Below are positions 2,370 to 40,728 of a DNA stretch of 44,707 nt, one piece after another; within the stretch, counting starts at the first letter, position 1; each line of letters begins with the position of its first letter. Source of the DNA: Candidatus Staskawiczbacteria bacterium (lineage in GTDB: Bacteria; Patescibacteriota; Minisyncoccia; Minisyncoccales; Staskawiczbacteraceae). The notes beneath the pieces were generated by a model, which saw nothing but the letters and a program-made list of their open reading frames with translations, had not been told where the DNA came from and ran no database searches. Both the position numbers and the translations under genes were made by a program. The stretch spans positions 1 through 44,707 of the forward strand of contig CAINWR010000037.1 in NCBI GenBank assembly GCA_903854535.1. Reading direction: 5' to 3'.

Positions 2370-3941
2370 ATGAAAAAAATTTATTTAATAATTATTATAA
2401 TATTGTCATTAATTTTAATATTGATGGCAATTTATTATTTGTTATTTTTAACCCCCACTTTAAAGCAAGTAAATCAAATACCTGAATTAAAAGATCAAAA
2501 GCAGGAAGTACTGGTTCAAGCAGAAGAAAACTTTGCTAAAACAATAAAAATAGAAGAAGACAAATATGCTTTTTACTTATCTTTGGATAATTGCAAACAT
2601 TCTACTGTAGGTAATAGTGCATGTGAGCCAGTAAAGAACAAAATTAGCATAAGAGATTTAAAATCATCCCAGCTTATTCAGGAAATAAATTTGCAAGATA
2701 TTAATTCTGATTTTTATTCTTTTGAAAAATTTCCTAAATTAGTTTATGAAGATTTTAATCTTGATAATCAAAAAGATTTTGCAGTAATGTATAAATATGA
2801 TAGCAATAATTTAGCTTATTATGATGTTTATACTTTTGATGCGGGCTCTAATAAATTTAAAATAAACCAAGAGTTATCTAATATAATTTCTGGACATTTA
2901 AGTTTTTCTGTAACAAGCTTTGGCTCTTCGCGTATTTTTGTACCAAGTTTTAAAATAGATTATAAAGTTATAAAAACTTTTGATAAAAATGATTCAATAG
3001 ACATTGAAACAAGATATGATTTTTTCAATGGCCTGCCAAGAAAAATTTATCAAATAAAAATAGAAAGCCTACAAACATTTAAAAAAATAACAGAAGGAAC
3101 TTTACTTGCCAATACATGGTCAGAACAAACAATGGCCGAGCCAAAAGATGGCACTTCTCTTAAAGAAATTTATACAAATGTATTTTATAATTTTCAAACT
3201 TTGTTTCCTGATAGGACCTTTTATTTAGATGAGTACGATTACGCAGCCAATAGACAAAATCCAAAAAATCCAAAGCTAAAATCAATAGATGGAAAAGCTA
3301 CTATATATTTAGAAAATTATGGCAGTGATTTTCCTGATAGAGTTGTAGAGCAATTTGTGAAAGACAATCAAGATGTAATTGGCCCAGAAAATATAAGACA
3401 TAGTCAATATTCTTATGGCCATATATATAAAGTATCTTATGTAAACTCTTTTTTTTATCGCAATATATATTTTTTCCCAAATTTTGGTTTGGTTTTTGAT
3501 TACAAAGATGCTTCTTCCAAAGAATCTTACAAAGCAATAGAAGAGAGTATTGTTAAATATTCCAGTCCAATGAAAACTTTGCTTACAGCAAAAGAACCGG
3601 TAAAAGTTATTTTGCCAAAATTAGGAAGTGTTTTGAAAGTTGGAGGTCTTTACGACATAACATGGGAAGCTTCAAATACTTTAAGTTCTGCAACAGTTCA
3701 AATCAATCTTATTTTTAATCACAATTATAATGAAAATTCTGCTTATAGCCAAGAATCATGTATAATGGATTCTGCGCATTTTACAAAAAATACTGGGAAA
3801 TATTCATGGACAGTACCAAGTGAGTGTGAAGGAGTTAAGCTTGGGGGAGACAATGATTATAATATTCGTATATTTGTGGTAGATTGGTCTACTCAAAAAC
3901 CTTTTTCAAGTGATAGTGATAAGTTCTATATAACCCCATAA
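2370..3941 (+). CDS. hypothetical N-terminally membrane-anchored protein
   Basis: 523-aa ORF starting 13 nt after the previous stop. It has an N-terminal helix (IYLIIIIILSLILILMAIYYLLF). No family recognised. Confidence 0.6.
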   Translation: MKKIYLIIIIILSLILILMAIYYLLFLTPTLKQVNQIPELKDQKQEVLVQAEENFAKTIKIEEDKYAFYLSLDNCKHSTVGNSACEPVKNKISIRDLKSSQLIQEINLQDINSDFYSFEKFPKLVYEDFNLDNQKDFAVMYKYDSNNLAYYDVYTFDAGSNKFKINQELSNIISGHLSFSVTSFGSSRIFVPSFKIDYKVIKTFDKNDSIDIETRYDFFNGLPRKIYQIKIESLQTFKKITEGTLLANTWSEQTMAEPKDGTSLKEIYTNVFYNFQTLFPDRTFYLDEYDYAANRQNPKNPKLKSIDGKATIYLENYGSDFPDRVVEQFVKDNQDVIGPENIRHSQYSYGHIYKVSYVNSFFYRNIYFFPNFGLVFDYKDASSKESYKAIEESIVKYSSPMKTLLTAKEPVKVILPKLGSVLKVGGLYDITWEASNTLSSATVQINLIFNHNYNENSAYSQESCIMDSAHFTKNTGKYSWTVPSECEGVKLGGDNDYNIRIFVVDWSTQKPFSSDSDKFYITP

Positions 3942-27725: not shown

Positions 27726-28406
27726 ATGAGTAATGGCGATGCGGTGCTGGCTCGTCTGTTCAAACTTTGGGCGATGGTTTGCAAGCTTATCATGGATGGT
27801 AAGCGGAGCGCAGAACAAGTTTGCGAAGTTCTGCAGGTCATTGTCGATGAGCGACAAGTCAAGACCAAAGTTGAGGAGTGGTTTGTTTTTTACAAGGAGG
27901 TTTTTGGTCTTGTGCTCGATTTTTCGGAATTGAAAATTCCCGAGCGTCGACCCGGCTTTGATCGTCTGATTGTTGTGGCCCAAGGAATGACGCCACAGCG
28001 ATTGTTTGAGAAATGCCAAGAATTATTTTCGTCATGGAAGTGGACGGAAAAAAACCTTGATGAGATCATTGCGTCTGCACGAACTGCACAAAACGGTGCT
28101 TATGCCGTTTGGGTTCGTGATCGTGTGGAAGCAGATGAAGAAAACAAAAATCTGTCTGCCGACGATCTTTCTGTTAAAGGCGAGGCCGAAGAAACCCTTG
28201 AAGAACGGATACTTCATGAGTTGAAATATTTCCGAGAAACCGGAAAGCACTTGGATGTCCAAAATTGGACACTGTGCTCCGGCTCGCTCTATTCTGGTGG
28301 CCTTGTTCCGTGTACTAACTGGAGCAGTGACTGGTTCAAGGTCGTTTGGTTTCACCCCGATTTCTGCAATGGCGACTTGCGCGCCCGCTCCGCAGTTCCC
28401 CAGTAG
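27726..28406 (+). CDS. DGR-1 variable (target) protein, G+C-rich, no signal peptide
   Basis: 226-aa ORF with SD GGGGA. The last 40 codons are the VR. C-terminal scaffold: GxVPCTNWxSDxFKVxWxHPDxxNxxLRARS. Confidence 0.85.
   Translation: MSNGDAVLARLFKLWAMVCKLIMDGKRSAEQVCEVLQVIVDERQVKTKVEEWFVFYKEVFGLVLDFSELKIPERRPGFDRLIVVAQGMTPQRLFEKCQELFSSWKWTEKNLDEIIASARTAQNGAYAVWVRDRVEADEENKNLSADDLSVKGEAEETLEERILHELKYFRETGKHLDVQNWTLCSGSLYSGGLVPCTNWSSDWFKVVWFHPDFCNGDLRARSAVPQ
28281..28400 (+). repeat. DGR-1 variable region (VR)
   Basis: 120 nt, 103/120 identical to the TR. 16 differences fall at TR adenines and 1 non-A difference at 28398. Confidence 0.9.
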
Positions 28407-28426
28407 TCGTTCGCTTTTTCCCTCGT

Positions 28427-28465
28427 GTCGCTTTTGGTAATGGATTTACCGAAAGCGACTTTTTT
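28427..28465 (+). terminator. intrinsic terminator / post-VR hairpin
   Basis: gtcgcttttggtaa tggat ttaccgaaagcgac forms a 14-bp stem (one G:U) with a 5-nt loop and a T6 run. It starts 21 nt after the target stop codon. Confidence 0.8.
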
Positions 28466-28473
28466 GTTATAAT
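28465..28473 (+). promoter_or_regulatory. candidate extended -10 promoter for the TR-containing RNA
   Basis: TGtTATAAT lies immediately after the terminator T-run. The -35 is weak (ttaccg). Confidence 0.3.
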
Positions 28474-28656
28474 AAATTTGGCTAATACAGCCGGCCCGCC
28501 TTAGGCGAGGTGTCGGTTTGCCAAGAAAATGGGGAACTGCTTGCCTGATTTTAACGAGTTCTGACTCGGAATAACACTCCACAAGGATGGAGCGTAAACA
28601 CAGAAAATTTTGAAAAAGATTTTCGGTGAAACAGAAGAAATTTAGGCAAAATAATG

Positions 28657-28776
28657 GGCTCGCACTATTCTGGTGGCAATGTTCCGTGTACTAACTGGAA
28701 CAGTGACAAGTTCAAGGTCAATTGGAATCACCCCGATAACTACAATAGCAACTTGCGCGCCCGCTCCGAAGTTGCC
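28657..28776 (+). repeat. DGR-1 template repeat (TR)
   Basis: Non-coding copy of the VR. In the VR frame it would encode GSHYSGGNVPCTNWNSDKFKVNWNHPDNYNSNLRARSEVA, rich in AAY codons. The invariant GC block ACTTGCGCGCCCGCTCCG lies near the 3' end. Confidence 0.9.
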
Positions 28777-28783
28777 TAAAAAT

Positions 28784-28810
28784 CAAAAGGAGTTTTTAAA
28801 ACTCCTTTTG
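28784..28810. terminator. 12-bp hairpin 7 nt after TR-1; the 3-nt loop is the avd stop codon
   Basis: caaaaggagttt tta aaactccttttg. The loop at 28796-28798 is the complement of the avd-1 TAA. Confidence 0.6.
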
Positions 28811-29179
28811 TGTTAAAGAATTTATCCAATTATTTATATCTTTGGATATTTCTACTAAATAATTTTCTAGTTCAATATATTTTTTATCTTTAATAATTTG
28901 TAATTCCCAAGAAGTTCTTATCAGTAATTTTAAAGTTTCAACTTTTATATGAGCTGATTTTAAAGGTTTTAGTTTATAGCTTTTATTTTCAAAACGAACT
29001 TCGGTTAATATTTCAATAATGTCTAAACAAGTATTTTCAATTTTCATAAAAATACCAAATCTATCTTTCTTTAAAATTTTAAACGAAATAAAGTAAATCT
29101 TTTTGTAAAAATCACAAAATTTATGCAAAACAGGAATATTAAAATTTCCAAATGTCTGGGGGGGGGTATTATTTGCCAT
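28796..29179 (-). CDS. avd: Avd-like four-helix-bundle protein (DGR accessory variability determinant family)
   Basis: 127 aa, helical, paralog of 39385..39777. The shared pattern ...K.ETLK..L...WE...I.DKKYI.L...L.EI.K.....W fits four-helix-bundle (23S rRNA IVS-like) proteins. It is antisense to TR and RT. Confidence 0.7.
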   Translation of the reverse strand: MANNTPPQTFGNFNIPVLHKFCDFYKKIYFISFKILKKDRFGIFMKIENTCLDIIEILTEVRFENKSYKLKPLKSAHIKVETLKLLIRTSWELQIIKDKKYIELENYLVEISKDINNWINSLTQKEF

Positions 29180-30160
29180 AATATTTTTGAAAAAATTATT
29201 TCTCTTGAAAATTTATTCTCTGCATGGCGAGAGTTTAAAAAAGGAAGAACTAAGAAGAAAGATGTTTTGCAGTTTGAATTAAATTTAGAAGATAATATTT
29301 TTTCGCTTTATAATGAATTAAAAAATAAAATCTATTGTCATTTAAATTATACATCATTTTGTATAAAAGACCCAAAATTAAGAAAAATTCATAAAGCAAT
29401 AGTAAAAGACAGAGTTTTGCATCATGCTATTTTTAGAATTTTATACCCAATTTTTGATAGGTATTTTGTTTTTGATTCTTATTCATGTAGAAATGGCAAG
29501 GGAACATATGAGGCGATAACCCAATTAAATAAATTTACAAAAAAAGTTAGTAAAAATAATATAAGAAATTGTTATGTTTTAAAATGTGATATTAAAAAGT
29601 ATTTCGATTCAATAGATCAAGAAATTTTGCTAAATTTAATAAGAATAAAGATAAAAGATGAAAGTGCAATTTGGCTTGTTGAAAGGGTTATAAAAAGTTT
29701 TCCAGCAGGTTTGCCATTGGGAAATATAACTAGTCAACTTTTTGCAAATATTTACTTAAACGAGTTAGATCAATTTATAAAACATGCATTAAAACAAAGA
29801 TATTATATTCGCTATTGTGATGATTTTGTTGTTTTATCCGAAAATAAGGACTTTTTAGAGAATTTAGTTTTTAAAATTGATAATTTTTTGGAAAATAATT
29901 TGAAATTATCTTTACATAAAGGTAAAATAATAATAGAAAAATATAGGCAAGGAGTTGATTTTTTAGGATATAAAAGTTTTCCGAATTATAGAATTTTGCG
30001 AACCAAAACTAAGAAGAGGATTTTAGATAAGGCAAAAGAAAAGCTTGGAATAGAATCGTTAATTTCTTATTTGGGAATATTAAAGCATTGTAAATCAAGA
30101 AAAATTAAGATGAAATTACTTAAAAGTTATTTTTCTATTGATAAAATATACAAAATTTGA
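29123..30160 (+). CDS. DGR reverse transcriptase 1
   Basis: DGR signature LPLGNITSQLFANIYL ([LIV]GxxxSQ) and catalytic RYCDDFVV (YxDD). Clear paralog of 39757..40728. The first 57 nt overlap the avd-1 5' end on the opposite strand. Confidence 0.9.
   Translation: MQNRNIKISKCLGGGIICHNIFEKIISLENLFSAWREFKKGRTKKKDVLQFELNLEDNIFSLYNELKNKIYCHLNYTSFCIKDPKLRKIHKAIVKDRVLHHAIFRILYPIFDRYFVFDSYSCRNGKGTYEAITQLNKFTKKVSKNNIRNCYVLKCDIKKYFDSIDQEILLNLIRIKIKDESAIWLVERVIKSFPAGLPLGNITSQLFANIYLNELDQFIKHALKQRYYIRYCDDFVVLSENKDFLENLVFKIDNFLENNLKLSLHKGKIIIEKYRQGVDFLGYKSFPNYRILRTKTKKRILDKAKEKLGIESLISYLGILKHCKSRKIKMKLLKSYFSIDKIYKI
29158..29166. repeat. G9/C9 homopolymer inside the avd-1/RT-1 overlap
   Basis: ctgggggggggta encodes GGG in RT-1 and TPP (ACC CCC CCC) in avd-1. 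Confidence 0.9.
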
Positions 30161-36627: not shown

Positions 36628-37980
36628 TTATTGATTAACTCTATTTTCTAGATTTTTCAAAAGATTTTGCTTTCTTAATTTTTTGTGATAAGTAATTGCA
36701 AATCTGTGGGCTTCATTATCAAGATTTTTAATTAAATTATAAATTTCTTGAGGCAGATTCTTCAAAGGAATAGGATTTTTTTGTCCCTCTATAAATAATT
36801 GTTGTTTGCCTTTGGCAATAGAAATAATCTTAATAGTTTGTAGTTTGTAGTTGGTAGTGAGTAGTTTATTTTTTATGTTGATTGCGACATTGATTTGACC
36901 TTTCCCCCCATCAACTAAAATTATTTCTGGATATGGCCAATCTTTGTGACTAAATCTTCTTTGCAGAACTTCAGAAAGCATTGCAATATCATTGGGCTCG
37001 TTTTTCATTTTTATGCGGAATTTTTTGTATTCAGCTTTGTTAGGTTTTCCATTTGTAAAAACAACCATAGAACCCACGGCAAATTTACCTTGAATATTTG
37101 AAATATCATAACACTCTATTCGGCCTGTAAATTGTAAAATTGGTGAGCTGTCCGACCGCTCGCCGACTTTGCTGTGGTTTATTACTCTTTCTAAAGCAAA
37201 AATTTGGTCGCGAATTTTACTCGCTCTTTCGAAATCTTGGTTTTTTGAGGCTAATTGCATTTCTTTTTTGAGCGATCTTAAAACTATAGAAGATTTTCCT
37301 TCTAAAACTAAAATAAGTTTCTTGATATTTGTTTTATATTCCCGAAGGTCCTCCGAAGCTTTAGGCGAAGGCGGATTTTCAAATAATTTAGGTCCAGGAC
37401 ATAGATCTAAATGGCACCACTGGCATTTTAGTTTTGAGTGTTTATTTGTTGTATAGTAAGGAAATACTTTTCTTAAAAATCTTATAGTTTTTTTTAGAGC
37501 GTTACCATCTACAAAAGGACCGATGTGTTTAGGTTGTAGTTTGTAGGAAGTAGCTTGTAGATTTTGATTTGGTTGATGGGTGATAAAAACATAAGGAATT
37601 TTAAGTTTACCCTGAGCGTAGCGAAGGGCGACATAAAAATAGTTTTTATCATCACGCCAAACTTGATTAAATTTGGGTTGATATTTCTTAATTAAATTAG
37701 CTTCTAAAATTAAAGCTTGTATTTCACTACCAGTTTCAATAAATCCAATTTTTTCAATTTGCTTTATATAAACATTATCTTTGTAGGTGGGGGATGAGAA
37801 ATGATTTTTAACTCTACTATTGATATTTATAGCTTTGCCAATATAGATAGGTTGTAGGTTGTAGCTAGTGGGTTGTAGGTTTTTGATGACTTGCGATTTT
37901 TTAGCATAAAACGCATAAACACCTGCTGTTGTTGGCAGGTTGTTTATATTTTTTACGCTTATAATCTTAAATTTATCCAT
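36628..37980 (-). CDS. uvrC: excinuclease ABC subunit C, short form without an obvious C-terminal (HhH)2
   Basis: GIY-YIG (GVYAFY...IYIGKAININSRVKNHF), UVR motif (FERASKIRDQIFALERV) and endonuclease domain (IECYDISNIQGKFAVGSMVVF...VDGGKGQINVA). Only 450 aa. Confidence 0.8.
   Translation of the reverse strand: MDKFKIISVKNINNLPTTAGVYAFYAKKSQVIKNLQPTSYNLQPIYIGKAININSRVKNHFSSPTYKDNVYIKQIEKIGFIETGSEIQALILEANLIKKYQPKFNQVWRDDKNYFYVALRYAQGKLKIPYVFITHQPNQNLQATSYKLQPKHIGPFVDGNALKKTIRFLRKVFPYYTTNKHSKLKCQWCHLDLCPGPKLFENPPSPKASEDLREYKTNIKKLILVLEGKSSIVLRSLKKEMQLASKNQDFERASKIRDQIFALERVINHSKVGERSDSSPILQFTGRIECYDISNIQGKFAVGSMVVFTNGKPNKAEYKKFRIKMKNEPNDIAMLSEVLQRRFSHKDWPYPEIILVDGGKGQINVAINIKNKLLTTNYKLQTIKIISIAKGKQQLFIEGQKNPIPLKNLPQEIYNLIKNLDNEAHRFAITYHKKLRKQNLLKNLENRVNQ
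36833..36870. repeat. in-frame CTACAAA-type heptamer repeat inside uvrC (encodes NKLLTTNYKLQTI)
   Basis: The + strand reads atagtttgtagtttgtagttggtagtgagtagtttatt. Its reverse complement shares aaactactcacta with the 23951-23975 hairpin arm. Confidence 0.6.
37532..37566. repeat. in-frame heptamer repeat inside uvrC (encodes QNLQATSYKLQP)
   Basis: The + strand reads ggttgtagtttgtaggaagtagcttgtagattttg. Confidence 0.6.
37850..37885. repeat. in-frame heptamer repeat inside uvrC GIY-YIG domain (encodes KNLQPTSYNLQP)
   Basis: The + strand reads ggttgtaggttgtagctagtgggttgtaggttttt. Confidence 0.6.
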
Positions 37981-38139: not shown

Positions 38140-38153
38140 GAGGATTTTTGGCT

Positions 38154-38882
38154 ATGACTGCTATTGGGGTGGTCAAGTTCCTGCTTCGGAATAGAGGTTA
38201 CTTCAAAGCGGGCAAATTAGCCCAAGGAGTGTGTGGGATGAGGAATGATTTTGCAATCGCCGGGATTGAGGTTGGTCAGTTGAATGCTCTTGTCAAGAAC
38301 CTCAAAGCTCAAATGAGTATTGAGGATTCAGTGGAAGCGGTTCGGCGCGTCAACTCGGGCGAGTGGATTGTTTCCGAACGAGTTCGTCGATGGTACGAGA
38401 AAGATGGCGTGATTCGGTTCGAAGTCACTGCCAATGGTTGGAGTGGTCAGCATTGGGTTGACTACTTCAAGGCCAATGGAGTGGATGTAGGGCAATACGC
38501 CAATTCGATTTTGTTGTCACCTGACTTCAAAATCACTCCGGGCGGAACCGTGGTCAAGGCCACTGTCTTTAAAGGAGAGATATTTTCGGACAGCGATCGA
38601 ATCACGGGAAAGATTCGTGCTTTCGTAGCCCGGTGCCAGCTGAAGCTATTAACGCCCAATACGGATTTGGCGTGTTTGATTCGAAAAGATCTCACGAACA
38701 AGGAAGTCCGCGATATGGGTTTGCGATGGATCATCGGGATGTCGGAGACTGTGAAGGATTCCGATGGCGGTCCGAGCTTGCTTTGCTCGCGCTGTGATGG
38801 TTCGGGTCCGTGGCTCACTGCGCGCTATGGCTTTCCCGAGTGCAGGTGGCTTCGCGGCATTGGGTTTGCCTTCGTCGAGTAA
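38154..38882 (+). CDS. DGR-2 variable (target) protein, G+C-rich, no signal peptide
   Basis: ATG at 38154, 9 nt after GAGGA (the track's 38148 start is TTG). The last 40 codons are the VR. The C-terminal scaffold ...SPWLxAxYxxPExRWxRxxGFAFVE fits a C-type-lectin-fold style ending. Confidence 0.85.
   Translation: MTAIGVVKFLLRNRGYFKAGKLAQGVCGMRNDFAIAGIEVGQLNALVKNLKAQMSIEDSVEAVRRVNSGEWIVSERVRRWYEKDGVIRFEVTANGWSGQHWVDYFKANGVDVGQYANSILLSPDFKITPGGTVVKATVFKGEIFSDSDRITGKIRAFVARCQLKLLTPNTDLACLIRKDLTNKEVRDMGLRWIIGMSETVKDSDGGPSLLCSRCDGSGPWLTARYGFPECRWLRGIGFAFVE
38759..38879 (+). repeat. DGR-2 variable region (VR)
   Basis: 121 nt, 100/121 identical to TR-2. All 21 differences are at TR adenines. Confidence 0.9.
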
Positions 38883-38944
38883 GTATCTTCGGGAAATTAG
38901 TTCTCGGCGCTTTGAATTTTTGTCCTTGTGCTTGGAACCTTTTA

Positions 38945-38984
38945 CCCTTTGCGTTTCTTCGGAATCGCAAAGGGCTTTTATTTT
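38945..38984 (+). terminator. intrinsic terminator after DGR-2 target
   Basis: ccctttgcg tttcttcggaat cgcaaaggg forms a 9-bp stem followed by cttttatttt. Confidence 0.75.
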
Positions 38985-39039
38985 CCATAAAACTTTGATA
39001 AACTAAAAATGGTAATAGGCGAATCTTGCTTGAGTTTAC

Positions 39040-39066
39040 GGATTCAGGCGGCCGAATCCAGTTTTT
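39040..39066 (+). terminator. second terminator-like hairpin in the VR-TR spacer
   Basis: ggattc aggcggcc gaatcc followed by agttttt. Confidence 0.45.
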
Positions 39067-39240
39067 GTGTGTTGAGAGCGTTTGCGATTATGGTTTCAAA
39101 CGGAGGATGCACAAAATACTAAAAAACCGAAGATACTTGGTGCGAAGAATTAAGGTATTTTAGATACCGAATAAGATTCAACTCTAAGATCGTTTCATAT
39201 AAAATTCAAAGGGTGGTGGTATAGATGATTTTTCGCAATT

Positions 39241-39361
39241 TTCCGATGGCAATCCGAACTTGCTTTACTCGAACTGTGATGATTCGAGTCCGTGGCTCAA
39301 TGCGAACTATGACAATCCCGAGAACAGGTGGAATCGCGACAATGGATTTGCCTTCGTCGAG
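39241..39361 (+). repeat. DGR-2 template repeat (TR)
   Basis: Non-coding copy of VR-2. In the VR frame it would encode SDGNPNLLYSNCDDSSPWLNANYDNPENRWNRDNGFAFVE, which has 9 Asn AAY codons. Confidence 0.9.
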
Positions 39362-39378
39362 CTACTCTCTTCATTTTT

Positions 39379-39400
39379 CTCTCCTTATTTTCTAGGAGAG
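39379..39400. terminator. 7-bp hairpin 17 nt after TR-2, straddling the avd-2 stop codon
   Basis: ctctcct tattttct aggagag. The avd-2 stop complement lies at 39385-39387. Confidence 0.5.
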
Positions 39401-39777
39401 TTTTGTTTTAAATTTTGTATTTGATTGTGCCAACCACCCAACATTTTACCAATTTCATTTAACTTTTCAGAAAGCAAAATATATTTTTTATCATCAATTG
39501 ATTTTGTTTCCCAAAGAATCATTAGAAATATTTTAAGTGTGTCAGTTTTTCTAATTGCTAATCTTATCCAAGGCAATTTCTCTTGTGGTTGCAAAAATCC
39601 AGCTGTAGTTGTAGTTTCTATTGCTTTAACAAAAAGATTATCTATTTTTTGTCCAAGCGAATATTTGTGTGTTTTTGGAATTTTATTTGAAAATTCATAC
39701 CAAACAAGATAGGTTTCTTTTAGTTTTTGCGAAATAGGTAATAATGAAACATTGTTATGAAAACTATTTTGCATCAT
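39385..39777 (-). CDS. avd: Avd-like four-helix-bundle protein
   Basis: 130 aa. KIPKTHKYSLGQKIDNLFVKAIE...LAIRKTDTLKIFLMILWETKSIDDKKYILLSEKLNEIGKMLGGW matches the remembered four-helix-bundle (TIGR02436-like) pattern. It is antisense to TR and RT. Confidence 0.75.
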   Translation of the reverse strand: MMQNSFHNNVSLLPISQKLKETYLVWYEFSNKIPKTHKYSLGQKIDNLFVKAIETTTTAGFLQPQEKLPWIRLAIRKTDTLKIFLMILWETKSIDDKKYILLSEKLNEIGKMLGGWHNQIQNLKQNSPRK

Positions 39778-40728
39778 AAATTTGAAGAAATAATTAATAT
39801 TGAAAATTTACTTTTAGCCTACAAGGAATTTGCTAAGGGAAAGAAAAACAGAATGGATGTTTTGGAATTTTCATTTATGCTAATGGATAATTTAATAGAG
39901 CTTCGAGACGACCTTGCCAATCATACTTACAAGCATCAAGATTATCAAGAATTTAAAATAAATGATCCAAAACCAAGAACAATCCACAAAGCAACAGTTA
40001 GAGACAGAATTTTGCACAGAGCAGTCTATAGGATTTTATATCCATTTTTTGATAAAAAGTTTATTGTAGATTCATATTCTTGTAGAAATAAAAAAGGAAC
40101 TCACAAAGCCATAAACAAATTTTCAGAATTTACCAACAAAGTTTCAAAGAACAACACTAAACAATGCTGGATTTTGAAATGTGATATTAAAAAGTTTTTT
40201 GCTAGTATAGACCAAAATATATTGCTGGAAATTTTAGAAAAATATATTGACGATAAAGATACAATAAACCTGCTCAAAGAAACAGTTTATAGTTTTAAAC
40301 TAGGCGGTTTGCCACTTGGAAATTTAACTTCACAACTTTTTAGTAATATTTATTTAAACGAATTTGATCAATTTATAAAGCATAAATTAAAAGCTAAATA
40401 TTATGTTCGCTATTGTGATGATTTTGTAATATTTTCACAAGATAAAAATTATTTAAAAAGTTTAATTCCAATAATTATTAATTATTTGCAAAATGTGTTA
40501 GGTCTCACCTTACACAAAGATAAAGTTTTTATCAAAACAATTTATTCTGGCGTAGACTATTTGGGCTGGGTAAATTTTAAAGATCATAGAATTTTACGAA
40601 GCAAAACAAAAACTAGAATGTTAAAACGAATAAAAGAAAACCCAAAATTAGAAACAATAAATTCTTATTTGGGATTATTAAATCATGGAAATGCATACAA
40701 AATTAGTTTATTATTAAACTATGATTAG
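39757..40728 (+). CDS. DGR reverse transcriptase 2
   Basis: LPLGNLTSQLFSNIYL and RYCDDFVIF. The first 21 nt overlap the avd-2 start on the opposite strand. Confidence 0.9.
   Translation: MKTILHHKFEEIINIENLLLAYKEFAKGKKNRMDVLEFSFMLMDNLIELRDDLANHTYKHQDYQEFKINDPKPRTIHKATVRDRILHRAVYRILYPFFDKKFIVDSYSCRNKKGTHKAINKFSEFTNKVSKNNTKQCWILKCDIKKFFASIDQNILLEILEKYIDDKDTINLLKETVYSFKLGGLPLGNLTSQLFSNIYLNEFDQFIKHKLKAKYYVRYCDDFVIFSQDKNYLKSLIPIIINYLQNVLGLTLHKDKVFIKTIYSGVDYLGWVNFKDHRILRSKTKTRMLKRIKENPKLETINSYLGLLNHGNAYKISLLLNYD

What the first reader, a model, noticed from the sequence alone, without database searches (positions are those of the whole stretch)
28657..29200. Apparently non-canonical DGR layout: avd antisense between TR and RT, with head-to-head overlapping start codons
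Both cassettes have the order target/VR(+), terminator, spacer, TR(+), hairpin, avd(-), RT(+). The avd start codon lies inside the RT 5' coding region: 29123-29179 (57 nt) in DGR 1 and 39757-39777 (21 nt) in DGR 2. There is therefore no intergenic space for divergent promoters. The adenine pattern shows that the TR RNA must be plus-sense. Any TR-to-RT co-transcript would thus be fully antisense to avd mRNA. The spacer segment downstream of TR, which in the Bordetella phage DGR supplies the priming site, would have to be encoded by the reverse complement of the avd coding sequence or by the small hairpin. The arrangement is conserved in two diverged copies, which argues that it is functional rather than a rearrangement. 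I cannot tell from memory whether this architecture has been formally described.
Basis: inference. Interest (0 to 1): 0.7.

Follow-up and report, generated by a model that had tools for sequence, protein, structure and literature searches.

The report
Poly-G switch inside a known DGR layout
The antisense-avd layout is the standard, already catalogued form of the protein-diversifying retroelement in ultra-small (CPR) bacteria, but the overlapping avd and reverse-transcriptase starts hold a conserved, length-unstable run of Gs that could switch both genes on or off together.

Summary
Both cassettes read target/VR(+), terminator, spacer, TR(+), hairpin, avd(-), RT(+). The longest avd and RT ORFs overlap head-to-head by 57 nt (DGR1) and 21 nt (DGR2).

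The layout is not new. It is "Architecture B3, TR-(avd)-RT" of Wu et al. 2018, found in 90% of their CPR DGRs. I found it in 75 of 80 related species-level loci.

The co-transcript and antisense-spacer idea is not supported:
- A conserved -10 box lies about 170-285 nt upstream of TR.
- A leader RNA between that box and TR has strong covariation.
- A terminator-like hairpin follows TR.
- The antisense-avd stretch has no conserved structure.

The overlap holds something apparently undescribed. In DGR1 it is centred on a G9 tract (29158-29166).
- A G7-G13 tract sits at this junction in 58 of 77 junctions and almost nowhere else; in five others a (GA)n or (CT)n repeat takes its place.
- Contigs with identical flanks carry G9, G10, G11 or G12.
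- Only some lengths keep RT and Avd in frame.

I infer a slipped-strand ON/OFF switch for the whole mutagenesis machinery. This is untested experimentally.

The parts
27726..28406 (+). DGR1 target gene (longest ORF, 226 aa; no Pfam hit). The variable region lies at its 3' end.
28281..28400 (+). VR1, the variable repeat
   Evidence: 120-nt repeat with TR1; all 16 differences lie at TR adenines
28427..28459 (+). Terminator-like hairpin plus T-run that ends the target gene
28445..28473 (+). Promoter-like site for the TR RNA: TTTACC, 17 nt, TG-n-TATAAT. The -10 box is at 28468-28473.
   Evidence: the -10 box aligns as TAnnnT in 58/58 related spacers
28480..28656 (+). Structured leader of the TR RNA: 5' hairpin domain 28480-28522, hairpin 28603-28624, and a long-range helix 28541-28552 / 28637-28648 that ends next to TR
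   Evidence: 36 consensus pairs, 23 with compensatory changes in 13 relatives
28657..28776 (+). TR1, the template repeat (plus-sense)
28784..28810 (.). 12-bp hairpin right after TR1 that overlaps the avd1 stop codon. It scores as a terminator for avd; on the plus strand the T-tail is weaker.
   Evidence: a hairpin at this position is present in almost all relatives, with different stem sequences
28796..29179 (-). avd1 (127 aa, bAvd family). The conserved domain starts near residue 15-19; residues 1-14 form an extension that reads through the C tract.
29123..29179 (.). 57-nt head-to-head overlap in codon register (19 codons of each gene). RT Met1 is the complement of Avd His19, and Avd Met1 is the complement of RT His19.
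29158..29166 (.). G9 tract (C9 on the avd strand), the only G/C run of 7 or more in the 44.7-kb window. This is the proposed slipped-strand switch.
29123..30160 (+). RT1 (345 aa), a CPR-clade DGR reverse transcriptase
38148..38882 (+). DGR2 target gene (start uncertain), with VR2 at 38759-38880
38999..39240 (+). DGR2 -10 box (TAAACT, 38999-39004) and structured leader. Helices: P1 39031-37/39040-46; P2 39079-88/39093-102; P3 39140-51/39227-38; P4 39155-58/39164-67; P5 39181-88/39207-14.
39241..39361 (+). TR2
   Evidence: all 21 mismatches lie at TR adenines
39379..39400 (+). Terminator-like hairpin plus TTTTGTTTT on the TR strand, overlapping the avd2 stop
39385..39777 (-). avd2 (130 aa, bAvd)
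39757..40728 (+). RT2 (323 aa). It overlaps avd2 by 21 nt (39757-39777). This junction has no repeat tract.

Best explanation
The region is the core of a CPR-type DGR of the catalogued architecture B3.

Shown by sequence and comparison:
1. TR is flanked by its own conserved -10 box, a covarying structured leader of about 180-260 nt on its 5' side, and a hairpin on its 3' side that abuts or overlaps the avd stop.
2. avd and RT diverge from a junction with no intergenic DNA.
3. In DGR1 and most relatives that junction holds a G7-G13 tract on the RT strand, or a (GA)n/(CT)n repeat in its place. The tract is nearly confined to this position.
4. The tract differs in length between contigs that are otherwise identical.

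Inferred:
(a) The template RNA is a separate small transcript (promoter, leader, TR, hairpin). It is not a TR-to-RT read-through. The RT-Avd recognition elements lie mainly in the 5' leader and the 3' hairpin.
(b) avd and RT are transcribed from promoters embedded in each other's 5' coding sequence.
(c) In the DGR1 type both ORFs must read through the tract, and they are in codon register. One slipped-strand gain or loss of a G therefore frameshifts RT and Avd together. G9 and G12 are ON; G10 and G11 are OFF. This gives heritable, reversible phase variation of targeted hypermutation.

DGR2 lacks the tract and would be constitutively in frame.
For: Architecture:
- avd(-) lies directly upstream of RT(+) in 75/80 loci.
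- A TR with adenine-specific mismatches lies next to the avd 3' end, with VR 400-500 nt upstream on the same strand.
- Wu et al. call this B3.

Separate TR RNA:
- The -10 box aligns in 58/58 spacers.
- Leader alignment of 39 sequences: 37 pairs, 32 with compensatory changes; 95.9% of cells paired against 66.6% in shuffles and about 45% with slid partners; covariation 0.89 against 0.29.
- The DGR1-type leader gives 36 pairs, 23 compensatory.
- A hairpin follows TR in almost all loci, with stems that differ in sequence. Most have a TTTTGTTTT tail.
- There is no consensus structure over avd on either strand.

Tract:
- 58 of 64 G/C runs of 7 or more in 541 kb fall in the 1.3% of sequence that is junction, and all 58 are G on the RT strand.
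- Five loci have (GA)n or (CT)n at that position instead.
- GGG is only 12% of Gly codons and CCC 9% of Pro codons in the window, so a need for Gly or Pro does not explain a perfect homopolymer.

Length polymorphism:
- Staskawiczbacteria lineage: G9, G11 and G12 with 0 mismatches in 2 kb of flank.
- Wildermuthbacteria lineage, with avd and the same junction type as the window: G9, G10, G11 and G12 among 13 contigs, with 0-1 mismatch in 1.6 kb.
- 5 of 13 groups of near-identical JGI junctions differ in tract length.
- Protein clusters at 90% identity differ only at GGG/GGGG or in where the N-terminus was called.

Reading through the tract:
- DGR1-type RTs have no canonical start between the tract and the conserved N-terminal motif.
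- An ATG upstream that is open to the tract is present in 23/24 such loci, against about 9/33 loci where the RT ATG lies downstream of the tract.
- In 70/70 JGI junctions exactly one or two of the states -1/0/+1 put both RT and Avd in frame.
- Gene callers call avd in three of four G9 contigs and in the intact G12 contig, and in none of the six G10/G11 contigs.
- avd-less derivatives keep the tract in the RT 5' coding sequence.

Activity: in the Wildermuthbacteria lineage VR differs between contigs at TR-adenine positions while TR stays identical.
Against: - There are no transcript or protein data. Promoter, terminator and start-codon assignments are sequence inference only.
- As assembled, the in-frame state is not enriched: 18/58 for Avd and 7/24 for RT among species representatives, and 18/70 in JGI junctions, with a possible excess of "one G too many". 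That fits a contingency locus, but it fits a tract under no frame constraint equally well.
- The rule that both genes are ON at the same tract length follows automatically from the two conserved ATG/CAT complementarities. Those are inherited within one clade, so they are not independent events.
- About a third of DGR1-type loci, including the window (TTG at 29128), have an internal TTG or GTG. It could give a tract-independent shorter Avd.
- In the larger junction class the RT ATG lies downstream of the tract. There the tract can affect RT only through transcription.
- Homopolymer lengths in short-read assemblies can be wrong, and read-level heterogeneity was not examined.
- For the window's own lineage no alleles could be compared.
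- On the plus strand the DGR1 hairpin has a weak T-tail and did not pass the terminator scan.
Confidence: 0.6

Rival explanations
1. The tract works mainly on RNA synthesis rather than as a DNA-level frame switch. Either it sets the spacing of an embedded promoter and so grades expression, or it makes RNA polymerase slip so that a fraction of transcripts is in frame whatever the DNA length.
For: - A -10-like TAnnnT hexamer directly abuts the tract in 16/58 loci, against a background of 1.8% per position.
- In 7 of the 12 such loci where RT starts downstream of the tract, the RT start codon lies exactly 7 nt after the hexamer. That is the geometry of a leaderless mRNA.
- In the window a promoter-like TTTCCA-16-TATTAT uses the G9 as its spacer.
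- Frame states as assembled are near-uniform, with a possible excess of n+1. That would be tolerable if slippage restores the frame.
Against: - In the DGR1 type the promoter-like site lies downstream of the RT ATG. It would give an mRNA with no start codon.
- DGR1-type RTs have no start downstream of the tract, yet 23/24 have an ATG upstream that is open to it.
- (GA)n replacements change the spacing by 2 nt per step and also shift the frame.

The two mechanisms do not exclude each other.
Confidence: 0.2
2. TR is transcribed together with RT through the avd region. The RNA segment that serves as the Bordetella-type spacer and priming site is the reverse complement of avd. TR-RT transcription and avd transcription therefore oppose each other.
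For: - TR and RT are on the same strand, with only avd between them.
- The DGR1 hairpin has a weak plus-strand T-tail.
- In avd-less relatives the hairpin is followed within 8-26 nt by the RT ATG, so read-through would give a TR-RT transcript.
Against: - A conserved hairpin follows TR, and in DGR2 and most relatives it has a plus-strand TTTTGTTTT tail.
- RNAalifold finds zero consensus pairs over 342 codon-aligned avd columns on either strand. The leader, at similar divergence, gives -40 kcal/mol.
- The conserved structured RNA and its promoter lie 5' of TR.
- Lineages that have lost avd altogether keep TR, hairpin and RT, so the antisense-avd sequence is dispensable.
Confidence: 0.1
3. The tract has no regulatory role. 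It is a mutational hot spot or an assembly-error hot spot, kept only because it encodes a flexible Gly/Pro linker or lies in dispensable sequence.
For: - The in-frame state is not enriched in assemblies.
- Scaffold gaps abut the tract in L080 and L095.
- The N-terminal extensions lie outside the conserved Avd and RT domains.
Against: - A perfect homopolymer is kept across RTs that are only about 50-60% identical, although GGG and CCC are rare codons here.
- It is confined almost entirely to this junction.
- It is replaced by other simple repeats rather than by mixed Gly or Pro codons.
- Alleles differ by up to 3 nt, and independent assemblies repeatedly give the same length, such as G12.
- Its position relative to the RT start differs between junction classes, so it is not a fixed protein motif.
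Confidence: 0.1

Closest known systems
Architecture B3 DGRs of the candidate phyla radiation (Wu et al. 2018, NAR, PMC5758913; Paul et al. 2017, Nat Microbiol, not readable here)
   Same: - The order is TR, then avd on the reverse strand, then RT, with a single upstream target gene carrying a 3' VR.
- The hosts are Patescibacteria.
- The RT clade corresponds to "DGR clade 2", which Roux et al. 2021 describe as restricted to Patescibacteria.
   Different: Nothing in the layout differs. The following are not mentioned in any paper I could search or read:
- the overlapping or abutting start codons;
- the hypervariable G tract;
- the structured leader 5' of TR;
- the hairpin between TR and avd.
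Bordetella phage BPP-1 DGR (mtd-avd-TR-Sp-brt)
   Same: - An RT plus Avd pair.
- Adenine-specific TR-to-VR transfer.
- VR at the 3' end of the target gene.
- The template needs flanking RNA segments.
   Different: - avd is upstream of TR and on the same strand.
- A spacer of about 140 nt between TR and brt supplies the priming adenosine (established knowledge; Handa et al. 2018, listed).
- In the window only a hairpin of about 30-45 nt separates TR from the avd stop, and the structured domain is 5' of TR.
- No repeat tract is known in the avd or brt starts.
Simple-sequence-repeat contingency loci: Campylobacter jejuni poly-G G8-G13 tracts, Neisseria poly-G/C tracts, and the Haemophilus influenzae hifA/hifB divergent promoter with TA repeats
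   Same: - A homopolymeric G/C tract of 7-13 in a low-GC genome, placed in a 5' coding region or promoter.
- Length alleles among otherwise identical sequences.
- Frame-dependent ON and OFF states.
- As in hifA/hifB, one repeat serves two divergent genes. (The families are from my own knowledge and from abstracts listed.)
   Different: - The switched genes are not surface antigens. They are the two enzymes of a targeted mutagenesis machine.
- The tract lies inside a codon-register antisense overlap, so one tract frameshifts two proteins.
- Switching rate and phenotype are unknown.

Membership tests
Diversity-generating retroelement | TR/VR repeat pair whose differences fall at template adenines | tested here: met
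   16/16 mismatches (DGR1) and 21/21 (DGR2) lie at TR adenines.
Diversity-generating retroelement | A reverse transcriptase of the DGR clade next to TR | tested here: met
   Pfam RVT_1. More than 6000 homologs, and the named ones are from Patescibacteria. The conserved motifs LPLGNxTSQ and YxRYCDDF are visible in alignment A1. No formal RT phylogeny was built.
Diversity-generating retroelement | VR at the 3' end of a target ORF, with a conserved GC-rich 3' boundary and a downstream hairpin | tested here: met
   VR1 ends 6 nt before the stop at 28406. The last 14 nt, GCGCGCCCGCTCCG, are identical in TR and VR. The hairpin lies at 28427-28459.
Diversity-generating retroelement | Accessory variability determinant (Avd) | tested here: met
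   Pfam bAvd PF22296, E 5.5e-10 and 1.3e-13.
Diversity-generating retroelement | Ongoing VR diversification in the population | tested here: inconclusive
   Shown for a related lineage: at least five VR alleles with an identical TR. No second copy of the window's own lineage was available as DNA.
DGR cassette Architecture B3 (Wu et al. 2018) | Core order TR, avd on the reverse strand, RT, with no other accessory gene | tested here: met
   for both cassettes. The definition is quoted.
Bordetella-type DGR RNA (avd 3' end, TR, Sp) | A non-coding spacer of about 140 nt between TR and RT that carries the priming site | tested here: not met
   About 19 nt separate the end of TR1 from the avd1 stop (28776 to 28796). 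Only a hairpin lies there. No conserved structure lies over avd.
SSR contingency (phase-variable) locus | A repeat tract of mutable length inside a 5' coding region or promoter, conserved in position | tested here: met
   G9 at 29158-29166 lies inside both ORFs. Tracts of G7-G13 occur at the same junction in 58 of 77 junctions, and 58 of 64 such runs are junctional.
SSR contingency (phase-variable) locus | Tract-length alleles among otherwise identical sequences | tested here: met
   in related lineages. This was not testable for the window's own lineage.
SSR contingency (phase-variable) locus | Length changes toggle the reading frame of the gene | tested here: met
   In silico only. Gene callers do not call avd in any G10 or G11 contig.
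SSR contingency (phase-variable) locus | High-frequency reversible switching with a phenotypic consequence | not testable with these tools
   This needs read-level, culture or reconstitution data.
Any Rfam RNA family, for the TR leader | A match at the family's gathering score | tested here: not met
   only a tRNA matched in the window.

The most novel reading that the evidence does not exclude
CPR bacteria gate their DGRs with a second-order contingency switch. A conserved hypermutable poly-G tract, or a GA repeat, sits in the codon-register head-to-head overlap of avd and RT. It turns the whole targeted-hypermutation machine on and off heritably and reversibly. Separately, the template RNA of these elements is an independent small RNA whose protein-recognition domain is a previously undescribed structured leader 5' of TR, instead of the 3' spacer of the Bordetella paradigm.
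Probability: 0.45. Interest if true: 0.8.

Novelty: new variant of a known kind. Interest (0 to 1): 0.62.

Why it matters
How DGR mutagenesis is regulated is largely unknown. An always-on mutator of a surface or ligand-binding protein is costly. A slipped-strand switch that silences RT and Avd together would give each population a small mutating subpopulation and a stable majority. It would also explain why some DGRs look inactive in population surveys.

The hypothesis can be tested with existing metagenome reads, by comparing tract length with VR turnover, and by reconstitution in E. coli.

The separate promoter-leader-TR-hairpin unit with strong covariation gives a concrete RNA to test for RT-Avd binding and priming in the most DGR-rich branch of bacteria. 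It also warns against carrying over the Bordetella spacer model.

In practice, annotation pipelines truncate or drop avd and RT at this junction. DGR catalogues may therefore miscount intact elements.

Tried and rejected
- Window-specific scan of JGI metagenomes with the tract flanks and a variable gap gave 0 hits. Tract alleles of the window's own lineage could not be compared.
- Exact-protein look-up of the neighbouring 89-aa gene found 10 contigs. Only one place was shown and it had no DNA.
- Paul et al. 2017, the primary CPR DGR paper, is not held. Prior mention of the tract there cannot be excluded.
- Rfam at gathering threshold matched only a tRNA.
- I expected in-frame tract lengths to be enriched in assemblies. 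They are not, so this supporting argument was dropped.
- I considered the tract as a Shine-Dalgarno element for RT. This was rejected because the distance to the RT ATG varies from about 13 to more than 25 nt, and in the DGR1 type the ATG lies upstream of the tract.
- I considered a protein-level Gly3/Pro3 motif. This was rejected on codon usage, on the (GA)n replacements and on the tract's shifting position relative to the RT start.
- The first alignment of DGR1-type leaders mixed three leader types and was uninformative. A 13-sequence subset was used instead.
- Tract polymorphism in the junction class where RT starts downstream of the tract was not examined.
- No covariance model was built.
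Full report
**1. Observation**

The window is about 30% GC and holds two DGR cassettes.

DGR1:
- The target ORF is 27726-28406 (+).
- VR1 (28281-28400) and TR1 (28657-28776) are a 120-nt repeat. All 16 differences lie at TR adenines.
- avd1 is 28796-29179 on the minus strand (127 aa, Pfam bAvd, E 5.5e-10).
- RT1 is 29123-30160 on the plus strand (RVT_1).

DGR2 has the same order: VR2 38759-38880, TR2 39241-39361 (21/21 mismatches at adenines), avd2 39385-39777 (-), RT2 39757-40728 (+).

The longest ORFs overlap head-to-head by 57 nt and 21 nt, exactly as reported. In DGR1 the overlap is in codon register. The RT ATG is the complement of the Avd His19 codon, and the Avd ATG is the complement of the RT His19 codon.

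Neither RT has another canonical start upstream of its conserved N-terminal motif. avd1 has an internal TTG (29128) that cannot be excluded as a start.

**2. The layout is known**

Wu et al. 2018 (PMC5758913) classify DGR cassettes and define "B3: TR-(avd)-RT", where parentheses mean the reverse strand. [quoted passage not shown] They also note that components on different strands need separate transcription units.

RT1 has more than 6000 homologs at E below 1e-10, and the named ones are Patescibacteria. The closest named homolog (84% identity) is from Candidatus Staskawiczbacteria.

I fetched 80 loci from different species-level genomes, with RTs 49-62% identical. An iterative profile search found avd on the opposite strand directly upstream of RT in 75 of them. 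Three of the other five are cut off by a contig end. Two (L006, L022) have lost avd.

Of the 77 junctions, 65 gave a repeat pair next to the avd 3' end, nearly all with mismatches almost only at the adenines of the avd-proximal copy. The partner copy (VR) usually lies 400-500 nt upstream on the same strand.

**3. The template RNA looks like its own transcription unit**

Promoter. The 250-390 nt between VR and TR align across 58 loci. A TAnnnT box aligns in all 58, at 170-285 nt before TR. In the window the box is TATAAT at 28468-28473. It has a TG extension and a -35-like TTTACC, and it sits just after the target gene's terminator.

Leader structure.
- In 39 sequences including DGR2, RNAalifold predicts 37 pairs in five helices, and 32 of the pairs have compensatory changes.
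- In the independent count, 95.9% of cells are paired. Shuffles give 66.6% and slid partners about 45%. The covariation score is 0.89 against 0.29, and 0 of 500 shuffles reach the observed value.
- A long-range helix closes two hairpins, and its 3' strand ends next to TR.
- The DGR1-type leader (13 sequences) has the same design: 36 pairs, 23 of them compensatory.
- Window coordinates of the helices are in the parts list.
- Nothing in Rfam matches.

Hairpin after TR. Almost every locus has a 6-15 bp hairpin downstream of TR, and the stem sequence differs between loci. In DGR2 and most relatives a TTTTGTTTT tail follows on the TR strand. The avd stop codon lies within or just beyond the hairpin, so it resembles a bidirectional terminator. 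The DGR1 hairpin (28784-28810) passes the terminator scan only for the avd strand.

Antisense avd. I aligned 76 avd genes by codon and folded 40 of them (342 columns, 46% identity). This gave zero consensus pairs on either strand. The leader, at similar divergence, gives -40 kcal/mol.

Lineages that have lost avd keep TR, hairpin and RT.

I therefore think the functional RNA is promoter-leader-TR-hairpin, with its recognition domain 5' of TR. A review describes a conserved structured trailing RNA for the prototype; here the structured part leads. The transcript ends are inferred, not shown.

**4. What the overlap contains**

An alignment of RT homologs showed an invariant-looking "GGG" in an otherwise variable N-terminal extension. 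At the DNA level this is a homopolymer.

Conservation and specificity.
- The avd-RT junction carries G7-G13 on the RT strand in 58 of 77 junctions.
- Five others carry (GA)n or (CT)n there.
- 58 of the 64 G/C runs of 7 or more in 541 kb lie in the junctions, which make up 1.3% of the sequence. Three of the six exceptions also lie next to an RT start.
- The window has one such run, G9 at 29158-29166.
- GGG is 12% of Gly codons and CCC 9% of Pro codons in the window, so protein need does not explain a perfect run.

Two junction classes.
- DGR1 type: RT has no start downstream of the tract. An ATG lies 27-37 nt upstream of it. Both ORFs cross the tract.
- Larger class: the RT ATG lies 13-25 nt downstream of the tract. 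The tract lies 8-15 nt from the Avd domain, on the path from an ATG that is the complement of the RT His codon.

DGR2 and about 13 relatives have no tract. Their starts overlap or abut.

**5. The tract is hypervariable**

- Protein clusters at 90% identity differ only by GGG against GGGG, by the upstream frame, or by 5'-truncated gene calls.
- Six Staskawiczbacteria contigs from different samples carry G9, G11 or G12. They have no mismatch in 1000 nt on either side.
- Thirteen Wildermuthbacteria contigs have avd and a junction like the window's. They carry G9 (4 contigs), G10 (4, plus one C-to-G variant), G11 (2) and G12 (2), with 0-1 mismatch in 1.6 kb.
- Gene callers call avd in three of the four G9 contigs and in the intact G12 contig. 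They call it in none of the six G10 or G11 contigs.
- An independent JGI scan gave 73 junctions. Five of 13 groups with near-identical flanks differ in tract length.
- In the Wildermuthbacteria lineage TR is identical in all contigs, while VR shows at least five alleles that differ at TR-adenine positions. One VR allele occurs with G9, G10 and G11. The DGR is therefore active in that population, and the tract changes at least as fast as VR.

**6. Mechanism and its weak points**

The simplest reading is a slipped-strand contingency switch. In the DGR1 type a change of one G frameshifts RT and Avd together, because the two leaders are in codon register.

Support for translation through the tract:
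- An upstream ATG that is open to the tract occurs in 23/24 DGR1-type loci, against about 9/33 loci of the other class.
- All 70 usable JGI junctions have a -1, 0 or +1 state in which both ORFs are open.

Weak points:
- The in-frame state is not enriched in assemblies (18/58, 7/24 and 18/70), and there may be an excess of "one G too many".
- Some loci, including the window, have an internal TTG or GTG for Avd.
- In the larger class RT can be affected only through transcription.
- Homopolymer lengths in assemblies can be wrong. Scaffold gaps abut the tract in L080 and L095.
- A -10-like TAnnnT abuts the tract in 16/58 loci, and in seven of them the RT start follows 7 nt later. A promoter-spacing effect, or RNA-polymerase slippage, is therefore a serious rival or an additional mechanism.

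My estimates:

| Claim | Probability |
|---|---|
| B3 DGR | about 0.97 |
| Tract is truly hypervariable | about 0.9 |
| TR RNA is a separate unit | about 0.7 |
| ON/OFF switch of RT and Avd | about 0.6 |

**7. Novelty**

The layout is already known.

I found no paper linking DGR RT or avd to homopolymers, simple repeats, frameshifts or phase variation, and none describing a leader 5' of TR. The key CPR paper (Paul et al. 2017) could not be read.

I rate the whole as a new variant of known kinds: a known DGR architecture combined with a known kind of switch, in a combination and geometry that appears undescribed.

Noticed in passing
L081-L086 (about 1337-1540), L006 (about 2790-3010), L022, and the L100 group: Some lineages have lost avd entirely, or keep only a 3' remnant of about 60 nt (L022). 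In them TR and its hairpin are followed within 8-26 nt by the RT ATG. The G tract is retained in the RT 5' coding sequence in L006 and L081-L086. L006 has G10, which is out of frame; G9 would be in frame.
   Followed up: partly
window 27726-28780 and 38148-39370, against 28796-30160 and 39385-40728: Target gene, leader and TR are 40-46% GC. avd and RT are 23-26% GC, and the window averages about 30%. This is a sharp compositional split inside each cassette.
   Followed up: no
window 29145-29172: A promoter-like TTTCCA-16-TATTAT uses the G9 tract as its spacer. It lies downstream of the RT1 ATG, so its product would lack a start codon. A TAnnnT hexamer directly abuts the tract in 16/58 related loci.
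   Followed up: partly
L019, L036, L050, L070, L079 (avd-RT junctions): (CT)n or (GA)n dinucleotide repeats of about 10-17 units occupy the position of the G tract.
   Followed up: partly
L080 (near 2990) and L095 (near 876-897): Runs of N (scaffold gaps) directly abut the G tract. Assemblers appear to break there.
   Followed up: no
the window locus as annotated elsewhere; L087-L093: Public gene calls truncate avd (83 aa in place of 127) or RT (311 aa in place of 356) to avoid the overlap. They omit avd in the G10 and G11 alleles. Automated DGR catalogues may therefore misjudge completeness.
   Followed up: partly
window 36834-37888 (inside minus-strand ORF 36628-37980): Three diverged copies of a 41-nt unit built from TAGTTTGTAG-like decamers (family D5). 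They suggest a repetitive protein segment of unknown meaning.
   Followed up: no
JGI class II junctions L099-L171: As assembled, 38 of 70 junctions are one G longer than the in-frame length, 18 are in frame and 15 are one G short. After dereplication the excess of n+1 is not significant.
   Followed up: partly
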